Shown: positions 22,662 to 64,000 of the stretch, piece after piece
Layout: the number at the start of each line of letters is the position of its first letter
Numbering within the stretch: the first letter of the stretch is position 1
From: Escherichia virus TH22
Sequence record: MT446396.1
Strand: one strand, 5' to 3'
Length of the DNA stretch: 64,000 bases
Made by a program: the position numbers and the translations under genes
The notes under the pieces: generated by a model
What the model was told of the DNA's origin: nothing
The model's database searches: none
What the model saw: only the letters and a program-made list of their open reading frames with translations

Positions 22662-22708
22662 GTTTACAACCAGATTAAGATAAGACATAATGATTCCATA
22701 CTGAGTTA
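22662..22708 (+). promoter_or_regulatory. early promoter GTTTAC-18 nt-CATAAT followed by conserved leader GATTCCATACTGAGTTA
   Basis: Hexamers read directly; the same leader recurs at 60795, 61681 and 62209. Confidence 0.6.
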
Positions 22709-22733
22709 ACAAACAAAACCTTGGAGTTTAAAA

Positions 22734-23015
22734 ATGAACAAAGCAACTTTCCTTCTGAACACCTTTAAAAAATTGGAAATTGAAGTTATTACATTGGTCA
22801 ACAAATACCCAAATGGTGTTAATGGTAATGCTCTGAACAAACTAGTTAAAAAATATGAAAACTTAGCATATGACACTGATTTCTGGTGGAATGGTAATTA
22901 TTCTACTCACACTAAAGATAAAAATGGTAACTGGTTGAAACTTCAAGAAAACAATGTTAACTTCAGAGACCTCATCAAGCGCCGGGTAGAAGTTCATTTA
23001 AATGGTATGGTATGA
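22734..23015 (+). CDS. hypothetical early protein (93 aa) between genes 23 and 24, opposite strand
   Basis: ORF with own promoter, GGAG Shine-Dalgarno and downstream terminator; N/K/W-rich. Confidence 0.45.
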   Translation: MNKATFLLNTFKKLEIEVITLVNKYPNGVNGNALNKLVKKYENLAYDTDFWWNGNYSTHTKDKNGNWLKLQENNVNFRDLIKRRVEVHLNGMV

Positions 23016-55365: not shown

Positions 55366-56038
55366 AATTAATTGCGATTGTGGGTAAAAAACGCAGTGGT
55401 AAAGATACGACTGCTGATTATGTTATTAGTCAAAACGGAACAAAGTGGCAGCTTGCAGGTCCGATTAAAGAAGCGCTTTATAAAGCGTGGATTCGTCAAG
55501 ACCTGCCACACAATTTGACCCTGGAAAATTTTGATGGACAAGGTTATGACCGTGAAAAAACCTTGATAATGAACAACACCGAAGCTTATATTCTTCTGGT
55601 TGATGCTCTTGAATGGTTGAAACAACAATACAATCTTGACCTTCCGAATCCAGATATGGTTCGTAAAATCATTGAATTTCACACACTAAATAATGTTGAG
55701 CCCTGGACAGTTAGACGTTTCATGCAGACCCTTGGAACTGACATCGTTTGTACAGAGTTCGACAGCATGTTTTGGATTAAAACTTTTGCGTGCGATTATC
55801 TTGACAACCTCTATTCTGGATATAAATATTACGTTGTCCCAGATGTTCGTCAAAAGAACGAACTTGATTCGCTTCGGGCGATGGGTGCTACAATAATCTT
55901 TGTAGAGCGCGATGAAGCAAATCATTCTACTGATACACACATTACGGAAGCTGGACTTCCACCACTAGCTAGTGACATTGTTATTAAAAACGATGGCACA
56001 CTCGAAGAACTTTTTGATAAAATTAATAAGGTAATATA

Positions 56039-56039
<1 letters not shown>
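55362..56039 (+). CDS. 1: deoxynucleoside monophosphate kinase
   Basis: 225 aa; P-loop VGKKRSGKDT near the N-terminus; position before 57A as in T4. Confidence 0.85.
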
Positions 56040-56729
<690 letters not shown>

Positions 56730-56730
<1 letters not shown>

Positions 56731-56759
56731 TGTACAAATGAGTGTAGGTGCAGTATTAT
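56730..56759 (+). promoter_or_regulatory. early promoter (ATGTAC-18 nt-TATTAT)
   Basis: Hexamers with 18-nt spacer upstream of ORF 56791. Confidence 0.5.
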
Positions 56760-56790
56760 GTTCCTACACCAACGAACAAACGGAGTTAAT

Positions 56791-57123
56791 ATGAACATCA
56801 AAACTTACAACGAGTTTTTAGCCGAATCCGCCATCAATGAGACCAAATCAATTGATGATAGTGAAGGCTCTCTGAAATTTGGTTTAACCAAAAATGCAGA
56901 TGGTGTTTTCTTTCAGATTGGTAATGAACGTTTTCAAACGTCCAAATATTCCAAAGCTGCAGTTGAAGCTGTCCTGAAATCTGGTGGCAAGTGGAAAGGC
57001 AAAGAAGGTACTAAAGAAATTGGTATCGCTGTTGACGGTGGTATGGCTTATTTTAAAATTGGCGATGAACAATTTATTATGTCTGCTCGCGGACGTAAAG
57101 AACTGGCAAAACTTTATAAATAA
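56791..57123 (+). CDS. internal-protein-like small protein with N-terminal capsid-targeting-like sequence (MNIKTYNEFLAE)
   Basis: 110 aa from ATG with GGAG Shine-Dalgarno; N-terminus resembles the T4 IP capsid-targeting sequence MKTYQEFIAE as recalled. Confidence 0.6.
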   Translation: MNIKTYNEFLAESAINETKSIDDSEGSLKFGLTKNADGVFFQIGNERFQTSKYSKAAVEAVLKSGGKWKGKEGTKEIGIAVDGGMAYFKIGDEQFIMSARGRKELAKLYK

Positions 57124-57131
57124 GGTTTCTT

Positions 57132-57404
57132 ATGAAAACTTTCAATGAATTTTTCAACGAGTCCCAACTGAATGAAGAAGTAAAAATTAGTAAAGCAGTC
57201 AAAGCTATGATTGACAATATCAATCACCTGTATAGCATTGACTTGACTGACCATATAACAATTGGTAACAAACGCAACTTTTTCGCGTTTGACATTTCAG
57301 AACTTGACCAGAACCAAATTAATAACATTGAGCGTTTTGCCAATGACAAGGGTCTCCGCCATGAGACAGCTGGTTATAAAAAATACGCAATTTATCTAAA
57401 ATAG
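57132..57404 (+). CDS. internal-protein-like small protein (MKTFNEFFNE)
   Basis: 90 aa; capsid-targeting-like N-terminus ending in Glu. Confidence 0.6.
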   Translation: MKTFNEFFNESQLNEEVKISKAVKAMIDNINHLYSIDLTDHITIGNKRNFFAFDISELDQNQINNIERFANDKGLRHETAGYKKYAIYLK

Positions 57405-57412
57405 GATTTCAA

Positions 57413-57712
57413 ATGCAAACGCTCCATGAATTTTTGGTAGAAAACAATTATCTGGCAGAAGCAAAAACCTGGCCTCTGGGCCTTCAGAAGAAAAACACCT
57501 ACAAATGGGTTGACTTCAAAGGTAAAGGCGACGCTGAAGACTTTGACCAGCTGTGTAAAAATGGTTATACCTTCCTTGACTCTAACTATAATAAAATTAC
57601 CTCATTTAGTCAGAAATCCAGCATTGCATATATTGAAACTGGTAAGAACACCCCTAAGAACATCACTGACGACTTCGCAGCTTATGGCGTGATTCGCGGT
57701 TCAAAAATGTAA
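57413..57712 (+). CDS. internal-protein-like small protein (MQTLHEFLVE)
   Basis: 99 aa; degenerate capsid-targeting-like N-terminus. Confidence 0.55.
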   Translation: MQTLHEFLVENNYLAEAKTWPLGLQKKNTYKWVDFKGKGDAEDFDQLCKNGYTFLDSNYNKITSFSQKSSIAYIETGKNTPKNITDDFAAYGVIRGSKM

Positions 57713-57748
57713 TGTACATGATGGGATAACTGCAGTATAATTATCCCA
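57712..57748 (+). promoter_or_regulatory. early promoter inside inverted repeat TGGGATAA...TTATCCCA (promoter stem-loop cassette)
   Basis: -35 ATGTAC, 18 nt, -10 TATAAT at 57736-57741; 8-bp inverted repeat brackets the -10. Confidence 0.6.
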
Positions 57749-57781
57749 TCAACTACTGGAGACAACATGAAAACTTATCAA
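57715..57781 (+). repeat. 67-bp perfect direct repeat, copy A (promoter + RBS + first 5 codons)
   Basis: Identical to 58013-58079. Confidence 0.85.
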
Positions 57782-58009
57782 ACATTTATAACAGAATCTT
57801 CCCATGGTATGGAAGTTAAACTTGGTCAAGCCCTTGCTGAAGCAGAGCGCCTGTTTGCACGTATCAAAGAACTTGCTGATTCTGTAGATGCATCATCTTT
57901 TAAAGGCGACCAGGGTAAAGTTAAAGCTCTCCTTGCTCTTTGTTCTGATGCAGGCGAAATTGCTAAGAATGGTACCAAGATGAAAAAACGCCTAGAAGAC
58001 TTAAAATAA
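57767..58009 (+). CDS. internal-protein-like small protein (MKTYQTFITE)
   Basis: 80 aa; capsid-targeting-like N-terminus. Confidence 0.65.
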   Translation: MKTYQTFITESSHGMEVKLGQALAEAERLFARIKELADSVDASSFKGDQGKVKALLALCSDAGEIAKNGTKMKKRLEDLK

Positions 58010-58048
58010 GTATACATGATGGGATAACTGCAGTATAATTATCCCATC
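58010..58048 (+). promoter_or_regulatory. early promoter inside inverted repeat TGGGATAA...TTATCCCA (promoter stem-loop cassette)
   Basis: -35 GTATAC, 18 nt, -10 TATAAT at 58034-58039. Confidence 0.6.
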
Positions 58049-58079
58049 AACTACTGGAGACAACATGAAAACTTATCAA
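58013..58079 (+). repeat. 67-bp perfect direct repeat, copy B
   Basis: Identical to 57715-57781. Confidence 0.85.
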
Positions 58080-58298
58080 GAATTTATTAATGAAACTGCT
58101 GATGTTAAAGTGCAATTCATTTACACCGGCAAGAAAGATAAAATGGGCGAAATGCCTTATGGAACTCTCCGCGACGCCTTAGATAATTACGGTCAGCTCG
58201 GCGGTGAAGAGTTTGGGGACTATTTTGTTATCCAGGGTCCGGCAGAAGTTATCGAGAAATGGGCTAACAAGTATAAATCAATTTTCCGTAAAAAATAA
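58065..58298 (+). CDS. internal-protein-like small protein (MKTYQEFINE)
   Basis: 77 aa; N-terminus nearly identical to the T4 capsid-targeting sequence MKTYQEFIAE as recalled. Confidence 0.65.
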   Translation: MKTYQEFINETADVKVQFIYTGKKDKMGEMPYGTLRDALDNYGQLGGEEFGDYFVIQGPAEVIEKWANKYKSIFRKK

Positions 58299-58340
58299 GT
58301 GTACTTTTAGATATGGGATAGTGTATAATTATCCCATCAA
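58299..58340 (+). promoter_or_regulatory. early promoter inside inverted repeat GGGATA...TATCCC (third cassette copy)
   Basis: -35 GTGTAC, -10 TATAAT at 58324-58329, then GAGGAG and ATG at 58358. Confidence 0.55.
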
Positions 58341-58357
58341 CTACTGAGGAGAATAAA

Positions 58358-58543
58358 ATGAAACGTTGCGAATTAATTAGAAATGTTACTGCCCTTGTTG
58401 CTGTTACCGCTTTTGGTTTTAGCATGTTTGCTGGCTTTATGTTGAATATGCTTTCAACTTCTGAGAATATAATCTCTTTAGTAGTTGCATTCTTAATTGG
58501 TTCAATCTCTTTCGTTATGGATAAAATCTCTAAAGGTGAATAA
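58358..58543 (+). CDS. small hydrophobic protein (61 aa, probably two transmembrane helices)
   Basis: Hydrophobic stretches VTALVAVTAFGFSMFAGFML and IISLVVAFLIGSISFV. Confidence 0.45.
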   Translation: MKRCELIRNVTALVAVTAFGFSMFAGFMLNMLSTSENIISLVVAFLIGSISFVMDKISKGE

Positions 58544-58950
58544 TGAACGTTGAATATTATGTATATGCAGATTATGAAAATAATCCGTCTAAAGATGAAG
58601 ATAATCGTTTAGGTGTAGATGCTTTCGATTCCCCTGCTGCCGCGTGGCAATGGGTTGAAAGAACCGATATTCCTTACCGTTATATTGAAGTGGTCGACCA
58701 CGCAGGAAACAAGTATCCTAAGGAAGCATATGTTCCTTCTGGGAAGGTGAATTTCCTTCTGTTTGCAGGTGATAACTATTATCCACGCGGTGGGTATACC
58801 GATTTAATCGCTAAAGCATTTTCTGAAGATGAACTGCGTGAAATTATAGAACAGAACAGTAGAAAACCGATGTATGGTTCTGACCGTTTTGACTGGTGGC
58901 AAATTGTTAATGCCAATACCCATACTGTTGTTGATGAGGGTTGTTTATGA
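58543..58950 (+). CDS. hypothetical protein (135 aa)
   Basis: ATG overlapping the upstream stop (TAATG). Confidence 0.45.
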   Translation: MNVEYYVYADYENNPSKDEDNRLGVDAFDSPAAAWQWVERTDIPYRYIEVVDHAGNKYPKEAYVPSGKVNFLLFAGDNYYPRGGYTDLIAKAFSEDELREIIEQNSRKPMYGSDRFDWWQIVNANTHTVVDEGCL

Positions 58951-59423
58951 ATATTAAATTTGGACAGACTATCCCTAAAGGTTATGTTGTTGAAATTGAA
59001 ACCTGGGAAAATGACGGTGATAACTATAAAACCCAGACAATATTTGGTGTAGAAGAACAAGAAATCCAACAGTACAAATATATCCTAGAACTTTTCCATG
59101 GTTCGCATTGCAACAACCCGGATAAATGTGGTAATTCAGAATGGGACGTAGTTAAAGACTTTATTATCGCACACATTGAATCTGGTGTAAAATCTGGCCA
59201 ATTAACTCCTGAATTCATTAACAAAACACTTTGTATTGAAAATCTGGAAAACCTGGTTGAAGGTGGCAATGGCCAGGAATTTGAATTATTGTGTTCTCTC
59301 CAGGAATTGCTGGGCGAGCCGGTGGAATATGATAGCGTTTTGCGCGTAGTTTCGTGGGTAAAATTATACATCATCGAAGAAGAAATCCAAATACCAAACG
59401 TTAAAGCACTTGATATGCTTTAA
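58947..59423 (+). CDS. hypothetical protein (158 aa)
   Basis: ATGA-coupled; the ORF-track TTG start at 58941 rejected. Confidence 0.45.
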   Translation: MNIKFGQTIPKGYVVEIETWENDGDNYKTQTIFGVEEQEIQQYKYILELFHGSHCNNPDKCGNSEWDVVKDFIIAHIESGVKSGQLTPEFINKTLCIENLENLVEGGNGQEFELLCSLQELLGEPVEYDSVLRVVSWVKLYIIEEEIQIPNVKALDML

Positions 59424-59501
59424 TAAAAACGCGTTATTATTAATAAGTACCCTCTATTACCAAAGGTTCTTCCCTCAAAGAGCCTTTCATAATAGAATTA
59501 A

Positions 59502-59575
59502 GGCCCTGTAGCTGGACGGTCAAGCGAGCGACTCATAATCGCTGGATGGTGGTTCGATTCCACCCAGGGCCACCA
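59502..59575 (+). tRNA. tRNA with CAT anticodon (Met, or Ile if lysidine-modified)
   Basis: Hand-folded cloverleaf: acceptor GGCCCTG/CAGGGCC, anticodon stem AGCGA/TCGCT with loop CTCATAA, T-arm GGTGG-TTCGATT-CCACC, encoded CCA. Confidence 0.75.
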
Positions 59576-59595
59576 AACTTATTTTAAATTATCAT

Positions 59596-59700
59596 GGCGA
59601 TAGGTATTGTAGATGCGGTTCGATTCCGTCCGGGGTAAGTGCCCTAGCATGCTTGGAGCATGAGTGACTTAATATTGGTGGTTCGAGTCCACCCCGCTAT
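59596..59700 (+). ncRNA. tRNA-like / degenerate tRNA region with two T-arm-like motifs but no canonical cloverleaf
   Basis: GCGG-TTCGATT-CCGT and GGTGG-TTCGAGT-CCACC present; no matching 7-bp acceptor stem found by hand. Confidence 0.25.
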
Positions 59701-59709
59701 GAACAAACA

Positions 59710-59785
59710 CGAGGCATAGCTCAGAAGGAAGAGCAAGGACCTTCTAAGTCCTAGGTCGTAGGTTCGATTCCTACTGTCTCGACCA
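59710..59785 (+). tRNA. tRNA-Arg (anticodon TCT)
   Basis: Hand-folded cloverleaf: acceptor CGAGGCA/TGTCTCG (one G-U), D-stem GCTC/GAGC, anticodon stem AGGAC/GTCCT with loop CTTCTAA, T-arm GTAGG-TTCGATT-CCTAC, encoded CCA. Confidence 0.8.
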
Positions 59786-59958
59786 AACAAGAAACCGGGT
59801 CGCTACCGGTAAGTCGTCGGACTGAAGTTCCCTGTTTAAGGACTGGCATTAATAAATCTTTACGATTTGTTGATGTCCCCTTATATCACAGCTGAAACGG
59901 CGCACCTAATTAACGATTCGAGGAAATATCTTTGCCGTAAGCCGAGTAGCGTTTTTGA

Positions 59959-60050
59959 CGGAACGTTCGGATATGGTCGAGATATGGCCTTTTAAAAATA
60001 TTGAGTAGCGTCAACTACTTGATAACCGGGTTCAAATCCCGGCGTTTCGT
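59959..60050 (+). ncRNA. tRNA-like RNA (92 nt) with acceptor stem, T-arm and a long internal hairpin but no canonical anticodon arm
   Basis: CGGAACG pairs with CGTTTCG; T-arm CCGGG-TTCAAAT-CCCGG; internal hairpin AGTAG-CGTCAA-CTACT. Confidence 0.3.
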
Positions 60051-60101
60051 ACAAACACTTGCCTAGCAGGTGGAACCCCGACAAGGTTGCCACAAGGTAT
60101 A

Positions 60102-60129
60102 GCCCCTTCCGAAAGGTTGGGGCTTTTTT
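60102..60129 (+). terminator. rho-independent terminator after the tRNA cluster
   Basis: GCCCCTTCC-GAAA-GGTTGGGGC hairpin followed by T6. Confidence 0.8.
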
Positions 60130-60136
60130 ATAAATA
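60129..60136 (+). promoter_or_regulatory. late-promoter-like TATAAATA upstream of ORF 60163
   Basis: Exact TATAAATA about 27 nt upstream of the ATG. Confidence 0.45.
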
Positions 60137-60162
60137 TAACGTACCCATAACTAAGGAAATTT

Positions 60163-60717
60163 ATGAAACTTTTAAAATATCTAAGCTGGATTCTGTTAGT
60201 ACCACTGGATTTCATTTCAATGATTCTGGCTGTTATCCTTGCACCATTTGTAGTGCCGTTCCATAACAAAAAGACTGGTAAGCTTCCGTTCGGATTTGAC
60301 TGGATGATGACATACGATAATCCAATTGATGGTGACCGTGGTCATGTTAAACGCTGGGAAAAAATCAGAAAATGGCCGTTAGGCGTTTACTTCCAGCGAG
60401 TGGCCTGGCTCTGGCGAAACAAAGCCTACAATTTTGCTTATCATAAGCTGGGCCGCGATTGCGATTCTAAATTCCATTATAAAGGTAATCCTGATGTTGA
60501 ATCGGGCTCCCCGGATAAAGCTCACCATGGCTGGCTCTGGATGTGGAATGATAATGCATGGGGCGTGTTCGCTTCCGTACCTTATCTTAAAGTTGGTGGA
60601 ATCACCTTTTATCTGCGCGTGTATTGCGGTTGGAAGCTCAAAAGTCTTCTGTCCCGTCCTATCCCGAAAGCTATGTTAGCCTTTCATATCAATCCCTTCC
60701 GTTTTTATAAGAACTAA
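60163..60717 (+). CDS. hypothetical protein with N-terminal transmembrane segment (184 aa)
   Basis: AAGGA Shine-Dalgarno; hydrophobic N-terminus LSWILLVPLDFISMILAVILAPFVV; Trp/His-rich body. Confidence 0.5.
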   Translation: MKLLKYLSWILLVPLDFISMILAVILAPFVVPFHNKKTGKLPFGFDWMMTYDNPIDGDRGHVKRWEKIRKWPLGVYFQRVAWLWRNKAYNFAYHKLGRDCDSKFHYKGNPDVESGSPDKAHHGWLWMWNDNAWGVFASVPYLKVGGITFYLRVYCGWKLKSLLSRPIPKAMLAFHINPFRFYKN

Positions 60718-60720
60718 TCA

Positions 60721-60746
60721 AACCCGCTCCGGCGGGTTTATTTTTA
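60721..60746 (+). terminator. rho-independent terminator (AACCCGC-UCCG-GCGGGUU + U-run)
   Basis: Hairpin plus TATTTTTA read directly. Confidence 0.8.
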
Positions 60747-60764
60747 ATATTTCTTCAAAAAGTA

Positions 60765-60812
60765 GTGTACATCCGAATTGACCGGGTGCATAATGATTCC
60801 ATACTGAGTTAC
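60765..60812 (+). promoter_or_regulatory. early promoter GTGTAC-18 nt-CATAAT with conserved leader GATTCCATACTGAGTTAC
   Basis: Same module as at 22662, 61651 and 62179. Confidence 0.6.
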
Positions 60813-60844
60813 ACACTGAATCACAAAAACTTTGGAGAAATAAA

Positions 60845-61270
60845 ATGAACTTTCTGACCCTGACCTCTGCATTTTCTGTTACCCGCATCACTAACAAAAT
60901 GGTTGCTGACGAAGTATGTGAAATCTGCATTCGTGAAGATGCACTTATCCATCTGACTTCAACCCAGATTGTTGCCATCGCTAAGTCCCTTAATTCTGAA
61001 CTGAAGGTAAACACCAAACAGTCAAAAGAATCCATCATTGAATTAATCCAAGCTGAAATGATTGAATTCCCAATTGAAGAAGTTAAAGAAGAAAAAATCC
61101 AGTCCAAATCTGGTAACGCCCGTGACATTTGCTTCCAGGCATTTGCAGAAATTGATATGAATGATAATGCAGCTCGCCGCGCTCTGATTGATGTTCTGGT
61201 TACCACCCATGATATCAAAAAGACTGTTGTTCAGTCATATGCTTCCAACTTCCGCAAAGCTCAAAAATAA
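60845..61270 (+). CDS. hypothetical early protein (141 aa), paralog of ORF 61723 in its C-terminal domain
   Basis: C-terminus NDNAARRALIDVLV...VVQSYASNFRK shared with ORF 61723. Confidence 0.5.
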   Translation: MNFLTLTSAFSVTRITNKMVADEVCEICIREDALIHLTSTQIVAIAKSLNSELKVNTKQSKESIIELIQAEMIEFPIEEVKEEKIQSKSGNARDICFQAFAEIDMNDNAARRALIDVLVTTHDIKKTVVQSYASNFRKAQK

Positions 61271-61282
61271 TTGAGAAAAGTG

Positions 61283-61316
61283 TTTTACTTCCAGGTGGGA
61301 TAGTGTATAATTATCC
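61283..61316 (+). promoter_or_regulatory. early promoter inside inverted repeat GGGATA...TATCCC
   Basis: -35 TTTTAC, -10 TATAAT at 61306-61311 flanked by GGGATA/TATCCC; leader variant CATACTGAGTTG. Confidence 0.5.
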
Positions 61317-61352
61317 CATACTGAGTTGCCAAATAAAACACTGGAGAATAAA

Positions 61353-61649
61353 ATGTTTAACGCACCTGCATGGCACGCTACCCAAGCTCAAGAAGAAAAC
61401 AAAGCAATCATTTCTGCTAAAATTGAAGCTCAACTGAATGAATTGTGCGAAACTGCTTCTGAAGAAGTTGTTGCAATCATCAAACAGTATCCTGCATCCA
61501 ACTATTCTCTGGCATGCATTAAAACAGAAATGGTTAACTTATGGCGCAAGAACAAGAAAACTTTCTTGGGTATGCAGTATCAAGCAATTGCATCTGCAGT
61601 AGTAAACATGTATGACTTTGAAGTTTATTTCCCAACTTCTGAAAATTAA
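61353..61649 (+). CDS. hypothetical early protein (98 aa)
   Basis: ATG with CTGGAG Shine-Dalgarno; the ORF-track start at 61326 lies inside the leader. Confidence 0.45.
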   Translation: MFNAPAWHATQAQEENKAIISAKIEAQLNELCETASEEVVAIIKQYPASNYSLACIKTEMVNLWRKNKKTFLGMQYQAIASAVVNMYDFEVYFPTSEN

Positions 61650-61650
61650 T

Positions 61651-61698
61651 GTGTACTTTGGAATTTGACTAAGGCATAATGATTCCATACTGAGTTAC
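61651..61698 (+). promoter_or_regulatory. early promoter GTGTAC-18 nt-CATAAT with conserved leader GATTCCATACTGAGTTAC
   Basis: Read directly; third copy of the module. Confidence 0.6.
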
Positions 61699-61722
61699 CA
61701 AATAAACAAACGGGATAATAAA

Positions 61723-62166
61723 ATGAAAACTTCAAAACTGGTTAAGTACGTTAAACTGGCATTAAACAACTCTTCTGAAGCTGAAGCACAATCCGCAGCA
61801 CGTATGTTCTTCAAACGTCTGACAGCTGAAGGTATTTCATTTAACCCGGCAGTATTTGGTATCACTCGTGGCGAAGCTGTTAAACTGGCAACTCTGGCAG
61901 GTAAAATTTTTAAAGGTCTGAATGATGGACAGGTTAAAGCAGAAGTTAAACCTACTCCTAAAGCTGAACCAAAAGCTGAGCGTAAGGCACCTAAACGCTC
62001 CGGTATGAGCAACAAAGATTTATGCTATGATATGTTCAAAACTGTTAATATGTCTAATGGTGCCGCTCGTAGGGCTGTTATTGATATGATTGTGCGTGAG
62101 TTTGGATTCAACAAAGCATCAGTTCAGTCTTATGCTTCCAACTTCCGCAAAGAATTTGAAATTTAA
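61723..62166 (+). CDS. hypothetical early protein (147 aa), paralog of ORF 60845 in its C-terminal domain
   Basis: C-terminus SNGAARRAVIDMIV...SVQSYASNFRK. Confidence 0.5.
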   Translation: MKTSKLVKYVKLALNNSSEAEAQSAARMFFKRLTAEGISFNPAVFGITRGEAVKLATLAGKIFKGLNDGQVKAEVKPTPKAEPKAERKAPKRSGMSNKDLCYDMFKTVNMSNGAARRAVIDMIVREFGFNKASVQSYASNFRKEFEI

Positions 62167-62174
62167 TTCAAAAA

Positions 62175-62226
62175 GGGGGTATACAAGCCCCCTGCTTTAA
62201 GGCATAATGATTCCATACTGAGTTAC
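62175..62226 (+). promoter_or_regulatory. terminator-like hairpin (GGGGGU...AGCCCCC) overlapping an early promoter GTATAC-18 nt-CATAAT plus conserved leader
   Basis: The -35 hexamer lies in the hairpin loop; leader GATTCCATACTGAGTTAC at 62209-62226. Confidence 0.5.
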
Positions 62227-62249
62227 ACAATAAAACACTGGAGAATAAA

Positions 62250-62555
62250 ATGAAATTCATCATCAACCTGGCGCTTGTTGACTTTGATAAAACTGGTAAT
62301 TTCGCATCTGCTGAAAATATGATTCGTAACACCAAGTTTAAAGTGCAAGTTCAACAGGCGGTAGCAAAAGAGTTCTTTACTGATAAATTAACTAACGTTG
62401 TTAATCACCTGAATGTGCAAGTTAAATTTACTCGTGAAGCAGAAACTACTGTTGCATTTGATTTTGACTGCCAATACCATGATGAATATGTTCGCCGTAT
62501 CCTGGATATTGTGTCTGATGAACTTTACTATGGTGTGCAGGAAAATAAAATCTAA
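62250..62555 (+). CDS. hypothetical early protein (101 aa)
   Basis: CTGGAG Shine-Dalgarno and ATG. Confidence 0.45.
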   Translation: MKFIINLALVDFDKTGNFASAENMIRNTKFKVQVQQAVAKEFFTDKLTNVVNHLNVQVKFTREAETTVAFDFDCQYHDEYVRRILDIVSDELYYGVQENKI

Positions 62556-62559
62556 ATCA

Positions 62560-62595
62560 GTGTACACTTTAATGGGAACATGATAGTATGTTCCC
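62560..62595 (+). promoter_or_regulatory. early promoter (GTGTAC-18 nt-TAGTAT) with -10 bracketed by inverted repeat GGGAACA...TGTTCCC
   Basis: Read directly; a different inverted-repeat sequence but the same stem-loop architecture. Confidence 0.5.
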
Positions 62596-62631
62596 TGGAT
62601 AATAAAACATTAACCAACTGAAGGAAATACC

Positions 62632-63225
62632 ATGAATACTTTAAAGAAACTTGTTGAATTCATCCGCTCCAAACTGGGTACTGCAATGGCAAAAAACCTG
62701 TCTATTGAAGACCAATATACTCAAGCGGCGTCTACCCTGATTGACAAGATTACTGAGCTCCAGACTGCACACGTTAAGTCTGTTAATGAAGAAAAACGCA
62801 TCCGCGAATTAGCAAATGAAAAAGACCAACTCGCCGCTTCAAAAGAGCGGGAAATCCGCAAACTGATTGCTGATGGTGCTGATGTCCAGGTCCATGCTAA
62901 ACTGGGCCTCCTGTATCGTCGCACTGCTAAACAACTTCGTAAGAAGGCAGATGATTATGTTGAAATGCGTAATGAAATTAAATTGAAAGTTAAAGAGCTG
63001 GATGATTCTCGTCAGGAACTAGCTGTTAAACTGGAATACATCCGCGAAACCCGTAAGGTATCTGCCCTGGGTATTGCGACTGCAGATGATGTTGTTGAAA
63101 TCGCTGCATTGACTAAGATTGATATTGAAGACACCCTGATGCGTGTTGAAACCTTCAAAGGTCCACAGGTTGGTGTGGATACCACGTCAGCTGACATTGA
63201 AGAATACATCAATTCACTTAAGTAA
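62632..63225 (+). CDS. hypothetical coiled-coil protein (197 aa)
   Basis: AAGGAAA Shine-Dalgarno; heptad-like charged helical sequence; family assignment not possible by eye. Confidence 0.45.
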
Positions 63226-63233
63226 GATAAAAG

Positions 63234-63248
63234 GGGGCTTTGCCCCCT
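63234..63248 (+). terminator. hairpin GGGGGC-UUU-GCCCCC (weak U tract)
   Basis: Perfect 6-bp stem; downstream TTAATT only. Confidence 0.4.
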
Positions 63249-63269
63249 TAATTGGGAGAGGAGAATATT

Positions 63270-63824
63270 ATGACTTCATACGATAATCTTATATCAAATG
63301 TAGACTGGTTTGGTGGTAGTGGCCTTGCTACTGAAACTAATACAGTTCTTTATAGAATCCGTGGTGACTTGGGTTATTCCAATGATTTCTTAAGAAGAAC
63401 AACAAGTCGCGGCGATACTACCAAATTGCCTTTTATTTTTGCTTTAGCTGAAGACCTTTCTTTCGCAGATGCCTTGGAAATTATTGACGTAAATCTGGGT
63501 ATTCAACGAGTGGAATTCGCTGGACTACGTTATTCAGTATATGCTTTAAACGAGAGCAATGATTGCATACTTCTTAATATGGCAGATGATGATTACCATT
63601 TAGTATGTTATGTGGCGCTAGAAAATGGTGATGTATTTGGAATGGTTGACCGACGGCCAGCTTATACTGATATTAAAAATTATGATAAAGCTGAGCTTGC
63701 TATTTTGACTAATGAGTACACATTAGAATGTCATAAACAAAAACGAAAGCTTAATCGTTTTATTACTGAATGTCGTGAATATGCTAAAGGGGTTCAAAAT
63801 GCGAACGCTATATCTGCCAAGTAA
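63270..63824 (+). CDS. hypothetical early protein (184 aa)
   Basis: ATG with GGAGAGGAG Shine-Dalgarno; the ORF-track TTG at 63252 rejected. Confidence 0.45.
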   Translation: MTSYDNLISNVDWFGGSGLATETNTVLYRIRGDLGYSNDFLRRTTSRGDTTKLPFIFALAEDLSFADALEIIDVNLGIQRVEFAGLRYSVYALNESNDCILLNMADDDYHLVCYVALENGDVFGMVDRRPAYTDIKNYDKAELAILTNEYTLECHKQKRKLNRFITECREYAKGVQNANAISAK

Positions 63825-64000
63825 ACCAGAAAAATTTGTATATGCAGACAAAATTGATAAAGACCTTATGCCTCCATTTGGGGCTCTGTCCATGTGCATC
63901 GTTGGGGTTATAATGATGGTGCTTTGTGGGGATATGGGTATCATTAGTGTTGGAGCCGCCTGGGCACTAATAATTGCAGCTCCTTTTATTACAGTCCTGG
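63799..64000 (+). CDS. partial ORF (5' end) of a small membrane protein, continuing beyond the window
   Basis: ATG at 63799 opens a frame with no stop to the window end; hydrophobic ALSMCIVGVIMMVLCG...GAAWALIIAAPFITVL. Confidence 0.35.
   Translation, partial: MRTLYLPSKPEKFVYADKIDKDLMPPFGALSMCIVGVIMMVLCGDMGIISVGAAWALIIAAPFITVL

What the first reader, a model, noticed from the sequence alone, without database searches (positions are those of the whole stretch)
60765..62226. Conserved 18-nt transcribed leader GATTCCATACTGAGTTAC immediately after the -10 of four early promoters
Four early promoters (22662-22708, 60765-60812, 61651-61698, 62179-62226) share both the sigma70-like hexamers and an identical downstream block CATAAT-GATTCCATACTGAGTTAC. 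Conservation downstream of the -10 is not needed for promoter recognition. It suggests a shared 5'-UTR element such as a processing site, a translational operator or a recombination cassette boundary.
Basis: seen in the sequence. Interest (0 to 1): 0.5.

Follow-up and report, generated by a model that had tools for sequence, protein, structure and literature searches.

The report
Repeated early-promoter cassettes in T4-like phage
The repeated 18-base block is real; it is the start-site and early-leader part of a promoter cassette copied in front of many unrelated small early genes of a T4-like phage, a known kind of element (PeSL) whose copies also act as recombination points where genes are gained or lost.

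Summary
Chance predicts 0.06. All follow a [C/T]ATAAT -10 box on the early-gene strand. The window is a Gaprivervirus, a T4-like coliphage genus. Its genomes carry 9-13 copies each, and single copies occur in Dhakavirus, Tequatrovirus and Gualtarvirus phages. Only about 12 of the 18 bases are likely transcribed: GATTCC is the discriminator and the predicted start is the A of CCATAC. The first 8 bases belong to the genus-wide early-promoter consensus. The last 10 define one of two leader classes. The leader RNA is unstructured and matches no Rfam family. The likely processing site lies further downstream, at the ribosome-binding site GGAGAATAAAA, which equals the published RegB/S1 cleavage consensus. 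Close relatives lack the ORF between two copies. Their hybrid junctions lie inside the leader in two phages and at AATAAAATG in a third. This matches the PeSL cassettes of Arbiol 2010 and Comeau 2014. Verdict: new member of a known kind, modest interest. Why -2 to +10 is invariant remains open.

The parts
60720..60745 (+). Intrinsic-terminator-like hairpin AAACCCGCTCCGGCGGGTTT plus T-run, directly upstream of cassette c60795. This is the stem-loop part of a PeSL-type cassette.
   Evidence: Terminator scan. The boundary of the 184-aa ORF indel in PSD2001 and TH57 lies in its T-rich tail.
60766..60794 (+). Early promoter c60795: -35 TGTACA, 17-nt spacer, -10 CATAAT
60795..60812 (+). The 18-mer, exact copy. 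It is a discriminator GATTCC followed by the predicted start A at 60801 and the first 12 transcribed nt.
   Evidence: the start site is inferred from the 7-nt distance and the C(-1)A(+1) context
60813..60847 (+). Rest of the 5' UTR (ACACTGAATCACAAAAACTTT), SD GGAG at 60834-60837 and ATG at 60845. This longer UTR subtype also occurs in VR20 at 163835 and 68278.
60845..61270 (+). 141-aa ORF of unknown function (phrog_9997)
61284..61311 (+). Early promoter c61312: -35 TTTACT, -10 TATAAT. A 7-bp inverted repeat TGGGATA (61296-61302) / TATCCCA (61312-61318) flanks the -10.
61312..61329 (+). Variant 18-mer TATCCCATACTGAGTTGC (3 mismatches). Its discriminator is of the second leader class and its leader is of the first.
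61343..61353 (+). SD region GGAGAATAAAA, an exact match to the RegB/S1 strong-site consensus. Its last A is the A of the ATG.
61353..61649 (+). 98-aa ORF (phrog_27242) flanked by two cassettes. It is absent from UPEC07, TH15, ECML-359 and VR26.
61652..61680 (+). Early promoter c61681: -35 TGTACT, -10 CATAAT. TGGAAT in the spacer is complementary to ATTCCA in the 18-mer.
   Evidence: complementarity shown for the VR20 ortholog
61681..61698 (+). The 18-mer, exact copy
61713..61723 (+). SD region GGATAATAAAA, the GGAU variant of the RegB consensus
61723..62166 (+). 147-aa ORF (phrog_18416). Its C-terminal region (a 73-residue alignment) is 44% identical to that of the 141-aa ORF.
62174..62193 (+). 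G5-loop-C5 stem-loop (GGGGGTATACAAGCCCCC) whose loop holds the -35 of c62209. This is the PeSL stem-loop subclass that overlaps the -35.
62180..62208 (+). Early promoter c62209: -35 TATACA, -10 CATAAT
62209..62226 (+). The 18-mer, exact copy
62240..62250 (+). SD region GGAGAATAAAA (RegB/S1 consensus) running into the ATG of the 101-aa ORF 62250-62555 (phrog_7474)
22663..22691 (+). Early promoter c22692: -35 TTTACA, -10 CATAAT
22692..22709 (+). 18-mer with one mismatch (last base A)
22734..23015 (+). 93-aa ORF of unknown function (phrog_6003). It lies between two large minus-strand ORFs that I read as the late genes gp24 and gp23, and it is antisense to them.
   Evidence: the VR20 ortholog is VR20_187
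57713..57766 (+). Second leader class: promoter, then TATCCCATCAACTACTGGAG and a short UTR. A 9-bp inverted repeat GATGGGATA/TATCCCATC flanks the -10. Further copies lie at 58011-58064 and 58300-58357.

Best explanation
The 18-mer is the middle section of a multi-copy early-promoter cassette of a T4-like phage (genus Gaprivervirus). It is a local version of the PeSL (promoter-early stem-loop) cassettes. Each cassette has five parts in order. First comes a stem-loop or terminator. Then an A/T-rich upstream element and a (G)TGTACA -35. Then a variable spacer and a (C/T)ATAAT -10. Then the discriminator GATTCC and a predicted start at the A of CCATAC. Last is an unstructured A/C-rich 30-45 nt leader ending in a GGAG SD and ATG. 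Host sigma-70 RNA polymerase fires these promoters immediately after infection. The first 8 bases of the 18-mer (GATTCCAT) belong to the genus-wide early-promoter consensus around the start site. The next 10 (ACTGAGTTAC) mark one of two leader classes. Because the block is identical at many places, homologous recombination between copies removes or inserts the ORF lying between them. The repeat is therefore both an expression signal and a module boundary. What is shown here: the repeat and its genomic distribution; junctions that map inside the cassette; the absence of RNA structure; and the match of the SD to the RegB consensus. What is inferred: the start site; that -2 to +10 is constrained by start-site selection or promoter escape; and that RegB cuts these leaders.
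For: The repeat is real and always sits right after a -10 on the early strand. The window is a Gaprivervirus. VR20 has 8 exact copies plus 5 with 1-3 mismatches, all preceded by a promoter on the early strand. A 51-nt cassette query finds 9-13 places in each complete Gaprivervirus genome and single copies in Dhakavirus IME341 and Tequatrovirus ESH35. It finds four places in Morganella phage MP1, of which two were read. The genes downstream belong to five different PHROG families, all of unknown function. Whole-gene duplication therefore does not explain the repeat. Junction evidence: the 98-aa ORF between c61312 and c61681 is missing from UPEC07 and TH15. Both carry one hybrid cassette with the c61312-type upstream part (TATCCC) and the c61681-type downstream part (CAAATAAACAAACGGGATAAT). 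The crossover therefore lies inside CATACTGAGTT.CCAAATAAA. ECML-359 lacks the same ORF but its crossover lies further 3', at AATAAAATG. VR26 has an extra ORF inserted at the SD-ATG of another cassette. Arbiol et al. [quoted passage not shown] They also described stem-loops upstream of, between, or overlapping the -35 and -10 boxes. All these arrangements are seen here. Among 27 VR20 early promoters chosen without reference to the leader, positions 1-8 after the -10 carry 0.8-1.3 bits each and positions 9-18 carry 0.3-0.7 bits. Mean pairwise identity is 50% in the 18 nt after the -10 against 34% in the spacer. Nolan et al. 2006 report a preference for C at -3 to -1 in early promoters of related phages, which fits a start at CC-A.
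Against: No 5' ends were mapped, so the start site and the transcribed fraction of the motif are predictions. Recombination explains why identical blocks are useful and how they could spread. It does not explain why -2 to +10 is invariant while the adjacent spacer is free. The identical block (24 nt with the -10) is short for homologous recombination. The junction evidence rests on a few loci, and the direction of each event (insertion or deletion) is unknown. Copy c22692 has no evident stem-loop. T4 uses the same host polymerase, yet the few T4 early promoters examined lack this leader. A unique polymerase optimum is therefore not the whole answer.
Confidence: 0.75

Rival explanations
1. The block is conserved mainly because it is an optimised initiation module for E. 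coli RNA polymerase. Discriminator, start site and the first about 10 transcribed bases would be tuned for open-complex stability, start-site choice and fast promoter escape. Recombination at the copies would then be a by-product.
For: The invariant core among copies and across genera is YCATACTGAGTT (-2 to +10), roughly the region transcribed before escape. Variation sits at -6 to -3 and at the last 2 nt. The same core with the same -35 block AAAAAGTAGTGTACA is kept in orthologous cassettes of Dhakavirus, Tequatrovirus and Gualtarvirus phages, although their spacers differ. The initially transcribed sequence can strongly change promoter output. From my own memory, not checked here: T5 PN25 reads TATAAT-AGATTC-ATAAATTTGAGAG, which resembles CATAAT-GATTCC-ATACTGAGTT.
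Against: A second leader class (CCATCAACTACTGGAG) serves comparable early promoters in the same genome, and T4 early promoters lack the motif. The polymerase therefore does not demand this sequence. The set of 13 VR20 copies was anchored on the core, so its invariance within that set is partly by construction. No kinetic data exist.
Confidence: 0.3
2. The transcribed part (AUACUGAGUUAC...) is an RNA-level signal shared by a regulon of early mRNAs. It could be a 5'-end determinant of stability, a translation enhancer, a binding site for a phage or host factor, or the body of a short leader RNA released when RegB cuts at the SD.
For: Conservation extends into the transcribed region. The leaders are unstructured and A/C-rich, which favours ribosome/S1 access. 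Three of five SDs in the window match the strong RegB/S1 site GGA(G/U)RAYARAA. Cleavage there would release near-identical leader fragments of about 25-30 nt from many promoters. regB is present in the genus (VR20_112).
Against: There is no predicted structure, no paired element conserved across the copies and no Rfam match. No factor is known that reads this sequence. Class B leaders lack it. The first 6 nt of the motif are probably not in the RNA.
Confidence: 0.15
3. The copies are simply recent duplicates that have not had time to diverge. There would be no constraint on the 18-mer itself.
For: Two of the downstream genes are distant paralogues. A 31-nt stretch that is 97% identical lies upstream of two cassettes, showing that local duplication or conversion occurs.
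Against: Within the same copies the 17-18 nt spacer next to the block is highly diverged (0.55 bits against 1.78 bits for the 18-mer among the 13 VR20 copies; 34% against 50% pairwise identity in the unbiased set). The downstream genes belong to five unrelated families. The core persists across genera.
Confidence: 0.05
4. CATACT at -1 to +5 is a second -10-like hexamer. It would act either as an overlapping promoter 11 nt downstream or as a sigma-70-dependent promoter-proximal pause signal.
For: The promoter scan reports TTGACC-N16-CATACT at 60778-60805. VR20 copies 163835 and 68278 have the same TTGACC. CATAATGATTC and CATACTGAGTT match at 8 of 11 positions, read directly from the sequence.
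Against: Only 2-3 of 13 VR20 copies have a suitably placed -35-like element. Class B has CATCAA there, which lacks the final T. Nothing was tested experimentally.
Confidence: 0.07

Closest known systems
PeSL (promoter-early stem-loop) cassettes of T4-like phages (Arbiol et al. 2010, PMC2839356; Comeau et al. 2014, PMC4122927)
   Same: Both are a repeated composite of a stem-loop or terminator, an A/T-rich region, a sigma-70-type early promoter, an SD and an ATG. Both lie mostly in hyperplastic regions in front of ORFs of unknown function. Both flank indels between close relatives, with crossovers mapped between the -10 and the ATG. Stem-loops occur upstream of, over the -35 of, or over the -10 of the promoter in both.
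   Different: PeSLs were described for RB49/phi1, PST/T4 and nt-1/KVP40, not for Gaprivervirus. Here the -35 is TGTACA-like and the -10 is often CATAAT. The passages of the PeSL papers read here do not mention a block between the -10 and the leader that is identical at 8 or more sites per genome and shared with other genera. Mini-circles, terminator activity and promoter activity were not tested here.
T4 early promoters (the 'uber' UP/-35/TGn/-10 class; Hinton 2010, PMC2988021; Nolan et al. 2006, PMC1524935)
   Same: Both have an A-rich UP region, a GTTTAC/TGTACA-type -35, a near-consensus -10, extra consensus outside the hexamers and C-rich -3 to -1. Both sit on the early strand upstream of small early genes.
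   Different: T4's own early promoters, as far as sampled here, have short and heterogeneous leaders without CATACTGAGTT. Here a large subset shares one leader.
RegB/S1 cleavage sites in T4 early mRNAs (consensus GG*AGRAYARAA; Uzan & Miller 2010, PMC3014915)
   Same: The SD of three of the five cassettes is GGA(G/U)AATAAAA, which matches the consensus. The site is intergenic, lies in early leaders and sits in unstructured RNA.
   Different: The site lies 18-30 nt downstream of the 18-mer, so it does not explain the 18-mer. Cleavage was not tested, and regB lies outside this window.
Conserved transcribed regions of strong coliphage T5 early promoters (PN25 and relatives; from my own memory of Gentz & Bujard 1985 and Kammerer et al. 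1986, not checked here)
   Same: Strong early phage promoters read by E. coli polymerase share sequence from the -10 into the first 10-20 transcribed bases, and that region contributes to promoter strength. The sequences resemble each other (GATTC.ATA..TGAG).
   Different: T5 is an unrelated phage. The resemblance is short and could be chance or convergence. No recombination role is described for T5.

Membership tests
PeSL cassette | [quoted passage not shown] | tested here: met
   All five copies have T(G/T/A)TAC(A/T), a 17-18 nt gap and (C/T)ATAAT, with an A/T-rich stretch upstream.
PeSL cassette | Stem-loop (terminator or attenuator) within or next to the promoter | tested here: met
   c60795 has the terminator 60720-60739 plus a T-run. 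c62209 has G5-loop-C5 over the -35. c61312 has a 7-bp inverted repeat around the -10. c61681 has a 6-bp one (shown for the VR20 ortholog). c22692 has none. Function as a terminator was not tested.
PeSL cassette | Ends in the SD and start codon of the downstream ORF | tested here: met
PeSL cassette | Many copies per genome, mostly in hyperplastic regions and upstream of ORFs of unknown function | tested here: met
   There are 13 copies in VR20, four of them clustered in the tRNA-e region, and 9-13 places per complete genome. The downstream genes fall in five PHROG families of unknown function.
PeSL cassette | Indels between close relatives are bounded by cassettes, with the crossover inside the cassette | tested here: met
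   UPEC07 and TH15 have a hybrid cassette with the crossover in the leader. ECML-359 has the crossover at AATAAAATG. The PSD2001/TH57 indel ends in the terminator tails. VR26 has an ORF inserted at an SD-ATG.
PeSL cassette | Formation of mini-circles by recombination between neighbouring cassettes during infection | not testable with these tools
   This needs inverse PCR on infected cells.
T4-type early promoter | Transcription starts there immediately after infection, without phage protein synthesis | not testable with these tools
   Only sequence features are available. The predicted start is the A located 7 nt after the -10.
RegB/S1 cleavage site | GGA(G/U) followed by RAYARAA in unstructured intergenic RNA of an early transcript | tested here: met
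   This holds for the SD regions at 61343, 61713 and 62240. It does not hold inside the 18-mer, which has no GGAG. c60795 and c22692 match only GGAG.
Structured RNA leader (translational operator, riboswitch or other Rfam cis-regulatory family) | Conserved secondary structure or a covariance-model match | tested here: not met
   MFE ranges from 0 to -3.2 kcal/mol, no better than shuffles, in 17 leaders. Apart from the two tRNA genes there is no Rfam hit at gathering score or at E up to 1.
Sigma-70-dependent promoter-proximal pause element | A -10-like hexamer in the initially transcribed region that recaptures sigma | tested here: inconclusive
   CATACT at -1 to +5 has the key A2 and T6. Pausing cannot be tested here, and class B lacks such a hexamer.

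The most novel reading that the evidence does not exclude
The invariant -2 to +10 block (YCATACTGAGTT) is shared by 10 or more early promoters per Gaprivervirus genome and by orthologous cassettes in three other genera. It may be a functional module in its own right and not passive homology. One version: it is an escape- or pause-programming initially transcribed sequence specific to this promoter family. Another: it is the body of a common leader RNA of about 25-30 nt released in bulk by RegB cleavage at the SD, with a role of its own early in infection.
Probability: 0.15. Interest if true: 0.55.

Novelty: new member of a known kind. Interest (0 to 1): 0.27.

Why it matters
It shows that the promoter-cassette mechanism of gene shuffling described for RB49/phi1, PST/T4 and nt-1/KVP40 also operates in Gaprivervirus, a genus isolated and studied for phage therapy and biocontrol. 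The junctions are precise enough to place crossovers within a 24-nt stretch. In practice, the cassette marks where small early genes of unknown function are swapped between otherwise near-identical phages. The core 20-44 kb is 100% identical to UPEC07, while the 56-64 kb region differs by indels and 3-12% divergence. The cassette also offers a compact, apparently strong and well-insulated expression unit. The open point is why +1 to +10 is frozen. It can be tested directly and bears on how far a bacterial promoter extends into the transcribed region.

Tried and rejected
1. Structured-RNA reading. I folded 17 leaders from the window and VR20. All are at or above the energy of shuffled controls. 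Rfam at gathering score and at E up to 1 gave only the two tRNAs and noise. Rejected.

2. Whole-gene duplication as the cause. The PHROG scan shows five unrelated families. Only the 141-aa and 147-aa ORFs share a C-terminal domain. Rejected as a general cause.

3. Annotated T4 promoters. The GenBank record AF158101 carries no promoter features. My regex found only 5 T4 early promoters in 70 kb, too few for a T4 consensus, so the T4 comparison is weak. The T4 genome review I tried to fetch as PMC150520 is not held.

4. Published promoter analysis of VR7 or VR20. None is in the library.

5. IMG/VR scans. They returned only VR20, VR25, VR26, IME341 and MP1. The phage GenBank collection was more informative.

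6. The inverted repeats flanking the -10 (10 of 27 VR20 promoters have 6 bp or more, and 0 of 2000 permutations reach this). I first took these for something new. Arbiol 2010 already lists stem-loops overlapping the -10 as a common PeSL subclass.

7. MotA-box reading of TGCTTTA in the c62209 spacer. By eye, the spacing to either -10-like hexamer (3 or 14 nt) is outside the published 11-13 nt. Rejected.

8. NAD-capping preference. From memory, the start context TCC-A-TAC does not fit the reported consensus. Not pursued.

9. Complementarity of the leader to 16S rRNA. Considered only from memory and not tested.
Full report
**1. The observation**

The 18-mer GATTCCATACTGAGTTAC occurs exactly at 60795, 61681 and 62209. 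It occurs with one mismatch at 22692 (last base A). Shuffled sequence gives 0.06 matches, and no shuffle reached 5.

Every copy lies on the + strand directly after a CATAAT or TATAAT hexamer. That hexamer sits 17-18 nt after a T(G/T/A)TAC(A/T) element with an A/T-rich stretch upstream. An SD and ATG follow 30-45 nt downstream. The repeat families found independently are 48-49 nt long and run from the -35 to the ATG. The stated coordinates are right.

**2. Where the window comes from**

The window is a T4-like phage of the genus Gaprivervirus (Straboviridae, Tevenvirinae).
- Positions 20000-44000 are 100% identical to UPEC07 and TH55.
- Positions 60000-64000 are at best 94-96% identical to CJ20, VR20 and TH57, with indels.
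- The + strand of the window is the early-gene strand.
- The four clustered copies lie in the variable region between the tRNA genes (59502-59785) and the e-gene region. In VR20 this region holds about 20 hypothetical ORFs.
- The fifth copy drives a 93-aa ORF between two large minus-strand ORFs that I read as the late genes gp24 and gp23, antisense to both.

**3. Distribution**

- The exact 18-mer is found in IMG/VR only in VR20, VR25 and VR26, with 7-8 copies each.
- In the complete VR20 genome there are 8 exact copies and 5 with 1-3 mismatches. All lie on the early strand and all directly follow a promoter.
- A 51-nt cassette query finds 48 phage records, with 9-13 places in each complete Gaprivervirus genome. 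It also finds single copies in Dhakavirus IME341 and Tequatrovirus ESH35, and four places in Morganella phage MP1 (Gualtarvirus).
- In those distant phages the -35 block AAAAAGTAGTGTACA, the -10 and CCCATACTGAGTTA are kept, while the spacer differs.
- T4 itself, as far as sampled, lacks the motif.

**4. Anatomy of the 18-mer**

The usual start position is 7 nt after the -10, and here it falls on the A of CCATAC. This is the favoured C(-1)A(+1) context. It fits the published preference for C at -3 to -1 in early promoters of related phages. On this reading GATTCC is the untranscribed discriminator, and only ATACTGAGTTAC is in the RNA. This is an inference, since no ends were mapped.

I took 27 VR20 early promoters chosen only by hexamers, upstream A/T content and a downstream SD-ATG.
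- Positions 1-8 after the -10 (GATTCCAT) carry 0.8-1.3 bits each.
- Positions 9-18 carry only 0.3-0.7 bits.

The lower figure reflects two leader classes. Class A is CCAT-ACTGAGTTAC followed by a 30-45 nt UTR. Class B is CCAT-CAACTACTG(G)AG, where the SD follows at once. Window examples of class B lie at 57742, 58040 and 58330.

So the first 8 bases of the 18-mer are part of the genus-wide early-promoter consensus, and the last 10 mark class A. Copy c61312 combines a class B-type discriminator (TATCCC) with the class A leader.

Among class A copies the variation sits at -6 to -3 and in the last two bases. YCATACTGAGTT (-2 to +10) does not vary. One caveat applies: the 13-copy set was anchored on this core.

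**5. RNA-level tests**

Seventeen class A leaders, taken from the predicted start to 12 nt past the ATG, fold at 0 to -3.2 kcal/mol. That is no better than shuffled sequence, and no pairing is conserved. Apart from the two tRNA genes there is no Rfam hit. A structured operator is therefore not supported.

The SD region of three of the five cassettes is GGA(G/U)AATAAAA. This equals the published consensus of strong RegB/S1 cleavage sites, GG*AGRAYARAA.
- The window has five such sites on the early strand.
- VR20 has 17 on the early strand against 2 on the other strand.
- regB is present in VR20.

The likely processing site of these leaders is therefore the SD, a known feature of T4 early mRNAs, and not the 18-mer.

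**6. Recombination**

I compared 56-64 kb of the window with five relatives.

The 98-aa ORF at 61353-61649 lies between cassettes c61312 and c61681. It is absent from UPEC07, TH15 and ECML-359, and from VR26. Reading the junctions:
- UPEC07 and TH15 have a single cassette. It is c61312-like upstream (GGGATA..TATAATTATCCC) and c61681-like downstream (TTACCAAATAAACAAACGGGATAATAAAATGAAAACTTC). The crossover therefore lies inside CATACTGAGTT.CCAAATAAA.
- ECML-359 keeps the whole c61312 leader and SD (CAAATAAAACACTGGAGAATAAAATG) and then continues with the c61681 gene. Its crossover lies at AATAAAATG.

These are two independent events at two points of the same cassette pair.

Further cases:
- The 184-aa ORF at 60163-60717, with its own terminator, is absent from PSD2001 and TH57. 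The junctions lie in the T-rich tails after two terminators.
- VR26 carries an extra 70-aa ORF inserted at the SD-ATG of another class A cassette.
- VR25 and VR26 carry an extra ORF just upstream of the terminator of a third cassette.

The five genes behind the window's copies belong to five PHROG families of unknown function. Two of them share only a C-terminal domain.

**7. Comparison with what is known**

Arbiol et al. 2010 and Comeau et al. 2014 described PeSLs in RB49/phi1, PST/T4 and nt-1/KVP40. These are repeated cassettes made of a stem-loop or terminator, an A/T-rich region, a strong early promoter, an SD and an ATG. They concentrate in hyperplastic regions, sit in front of ORFans and flank indels. 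[quoted passage not shown] The stem-loop may lie upstream, between the boxes, or over the -35 or the -10.

All these arrangements occur here:
- a terminator upstream of c60795;
- G5-loop-C5 around the -35 of c62209;
- inverted repeats flanking the -10.

For the inverted repeats, 10 of 27 VR20 promoters have 6 bp or more. The arm sequences differ between promoters: GGGATA/TATCCC, GGGGTC/GACCCC, GGGAGC/GCTCCC, GTGGGACC/GGTCCCAC and TCAGTATGGA/TCCATACTGA. None of 2000 permutations reached the observed values.

Every sequence-level defining feature of a PeSL is met. Mini-circles and promoter or terminator activity could not be tested. I therefore file the finding as a Gaprivervirus member of the PeSL kind, built on T4-type early promoters.

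**8. What remains unexplained**

Homology for recombination does not by itself explain why -2 to +10 is frozen while the neighbouring spacer is free. Among the 13 VR20 copies the spacer carries 0.55 bits against 1.78 bits for the 18-mer. In the unbiased set, pairwise identity is 34% in the spacer against 50% in the 18 nt after the -10.

The most economical reading is constraint on start-site selection and promoter escape, since the initially transcribed sequence can change promoter output strongly. From memory, not checked here, strong T5 early promoters show a similar conserved block. Against a unique polymerase optimum stand class B and T4.

Other readings are not excluded and not supported:
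- an RNA 5'-end signal;
- a leader fragment released by RegB;
- a sigma-dependent pause or a second promoter at the -10-like CATACT.

**9. Verdict**

The recombination-boundary option is right. The processing site lies elsewhere in the leader. The operator option is not supported.
- Novelty: a new member of a known kind.
- Interest: modest.

Noticed in passing
window 57713-57766, 58011-58064, 58300-58357: Three class B early-promoter cassettes (TATCCCATCAACTACTGGAG, short UTR). An 8-10 bp inverted repeat (GATGGGATA/TATCCCATC) encloses the -10. They sit in front of tandem genes of about 61-80 aa; the first two are paralogues starting MKTYQ. Copy number differs among relatives, with breakpoints at 57798, 58003 and 58285.
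   Followed up: partly
window 62560-62631: Another early-type promoter (GTGTACA ... TAGTAT). A 6-bp inverted repeat GGGAAC/GTTCCC flanks the -10-like hexamer, upstream of the 197-aa ORF 62632-63225 (phrog_1203). VR20 has an extra ORF of about 450 nt (VR20_139) inserted at this point.
   Followed up: partly
window 61229-61259 and 62122-62152: A 31-nt stretch (GTTCAGTC.TATGCTTCCAACTTCCGCAAAG) is 97% identical at the 3' ends of the 141-aa and 147-aa ORFs. The two proteins are only 44% identical over the C-terminal alignment. Both stretches lie just upstream of a cassette, which suggests local gene conversion or extended homology for recombination.
   Followed up: no
window 59578-59650 and about 59990-60135: A third tRNA-like T-arm (GGTTCGATTCC, 59617-59644) lies between tRNA-Met and tRNA-Arg. 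A further T-arm-like GGGTTCAAATCCCGG follows, then a strong terminator (AGCCCCTTCCGAAAGGTTGGGGCTTTTTT). These could be a degenerate tRNA and a small stable RNA like those next to the T4 tRNA cluster. ARAGORN calls nothing there, and Rfam gives only a sub-threshold tmRNA_permuted match at 59548-59611 (E 0.79).
   Followed up: partly
window 20000-44000 versus 56000-64000: The structural-gene core is 100% identical to UPEC07 and TH55. The tRNA-e variable region is only 79-97% identical to UPEC07 and differs by ORF indels. The genome is therefore a recent mosaic.
   Followed up: partly
window 22734-23015: A 93-aa ORF of unknown function (phrog_6003) with its own early-type promoter sits between two large minus-strand ORFs that I read as the late genes gp24 and gp23, antisense to both. 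From memory, T4 has the homing endonuclease gene segD at this position.
   Followed up: no
window 60778-60805: TTGACC-N16-CATACT forms a second promoter-like site 11 nt downstream of the main one. CATAATGATTC and CATACTGAGTT match at 8 of 11 positions, so the leader start looks like a degenerate tandem copy of the -10 plus discriminator.
   Followed up: partly
L018-L021 (VR20) 163839, 48324, 19690, 129032: Several class A cassettes share a nearly identical upstream terminator (GGACCCTTCGGGGTCC plus a T-run). The repeated unit there is about 110 nt: terminator, UP element, -35, spacer, -10, leader.
   Followed up: no
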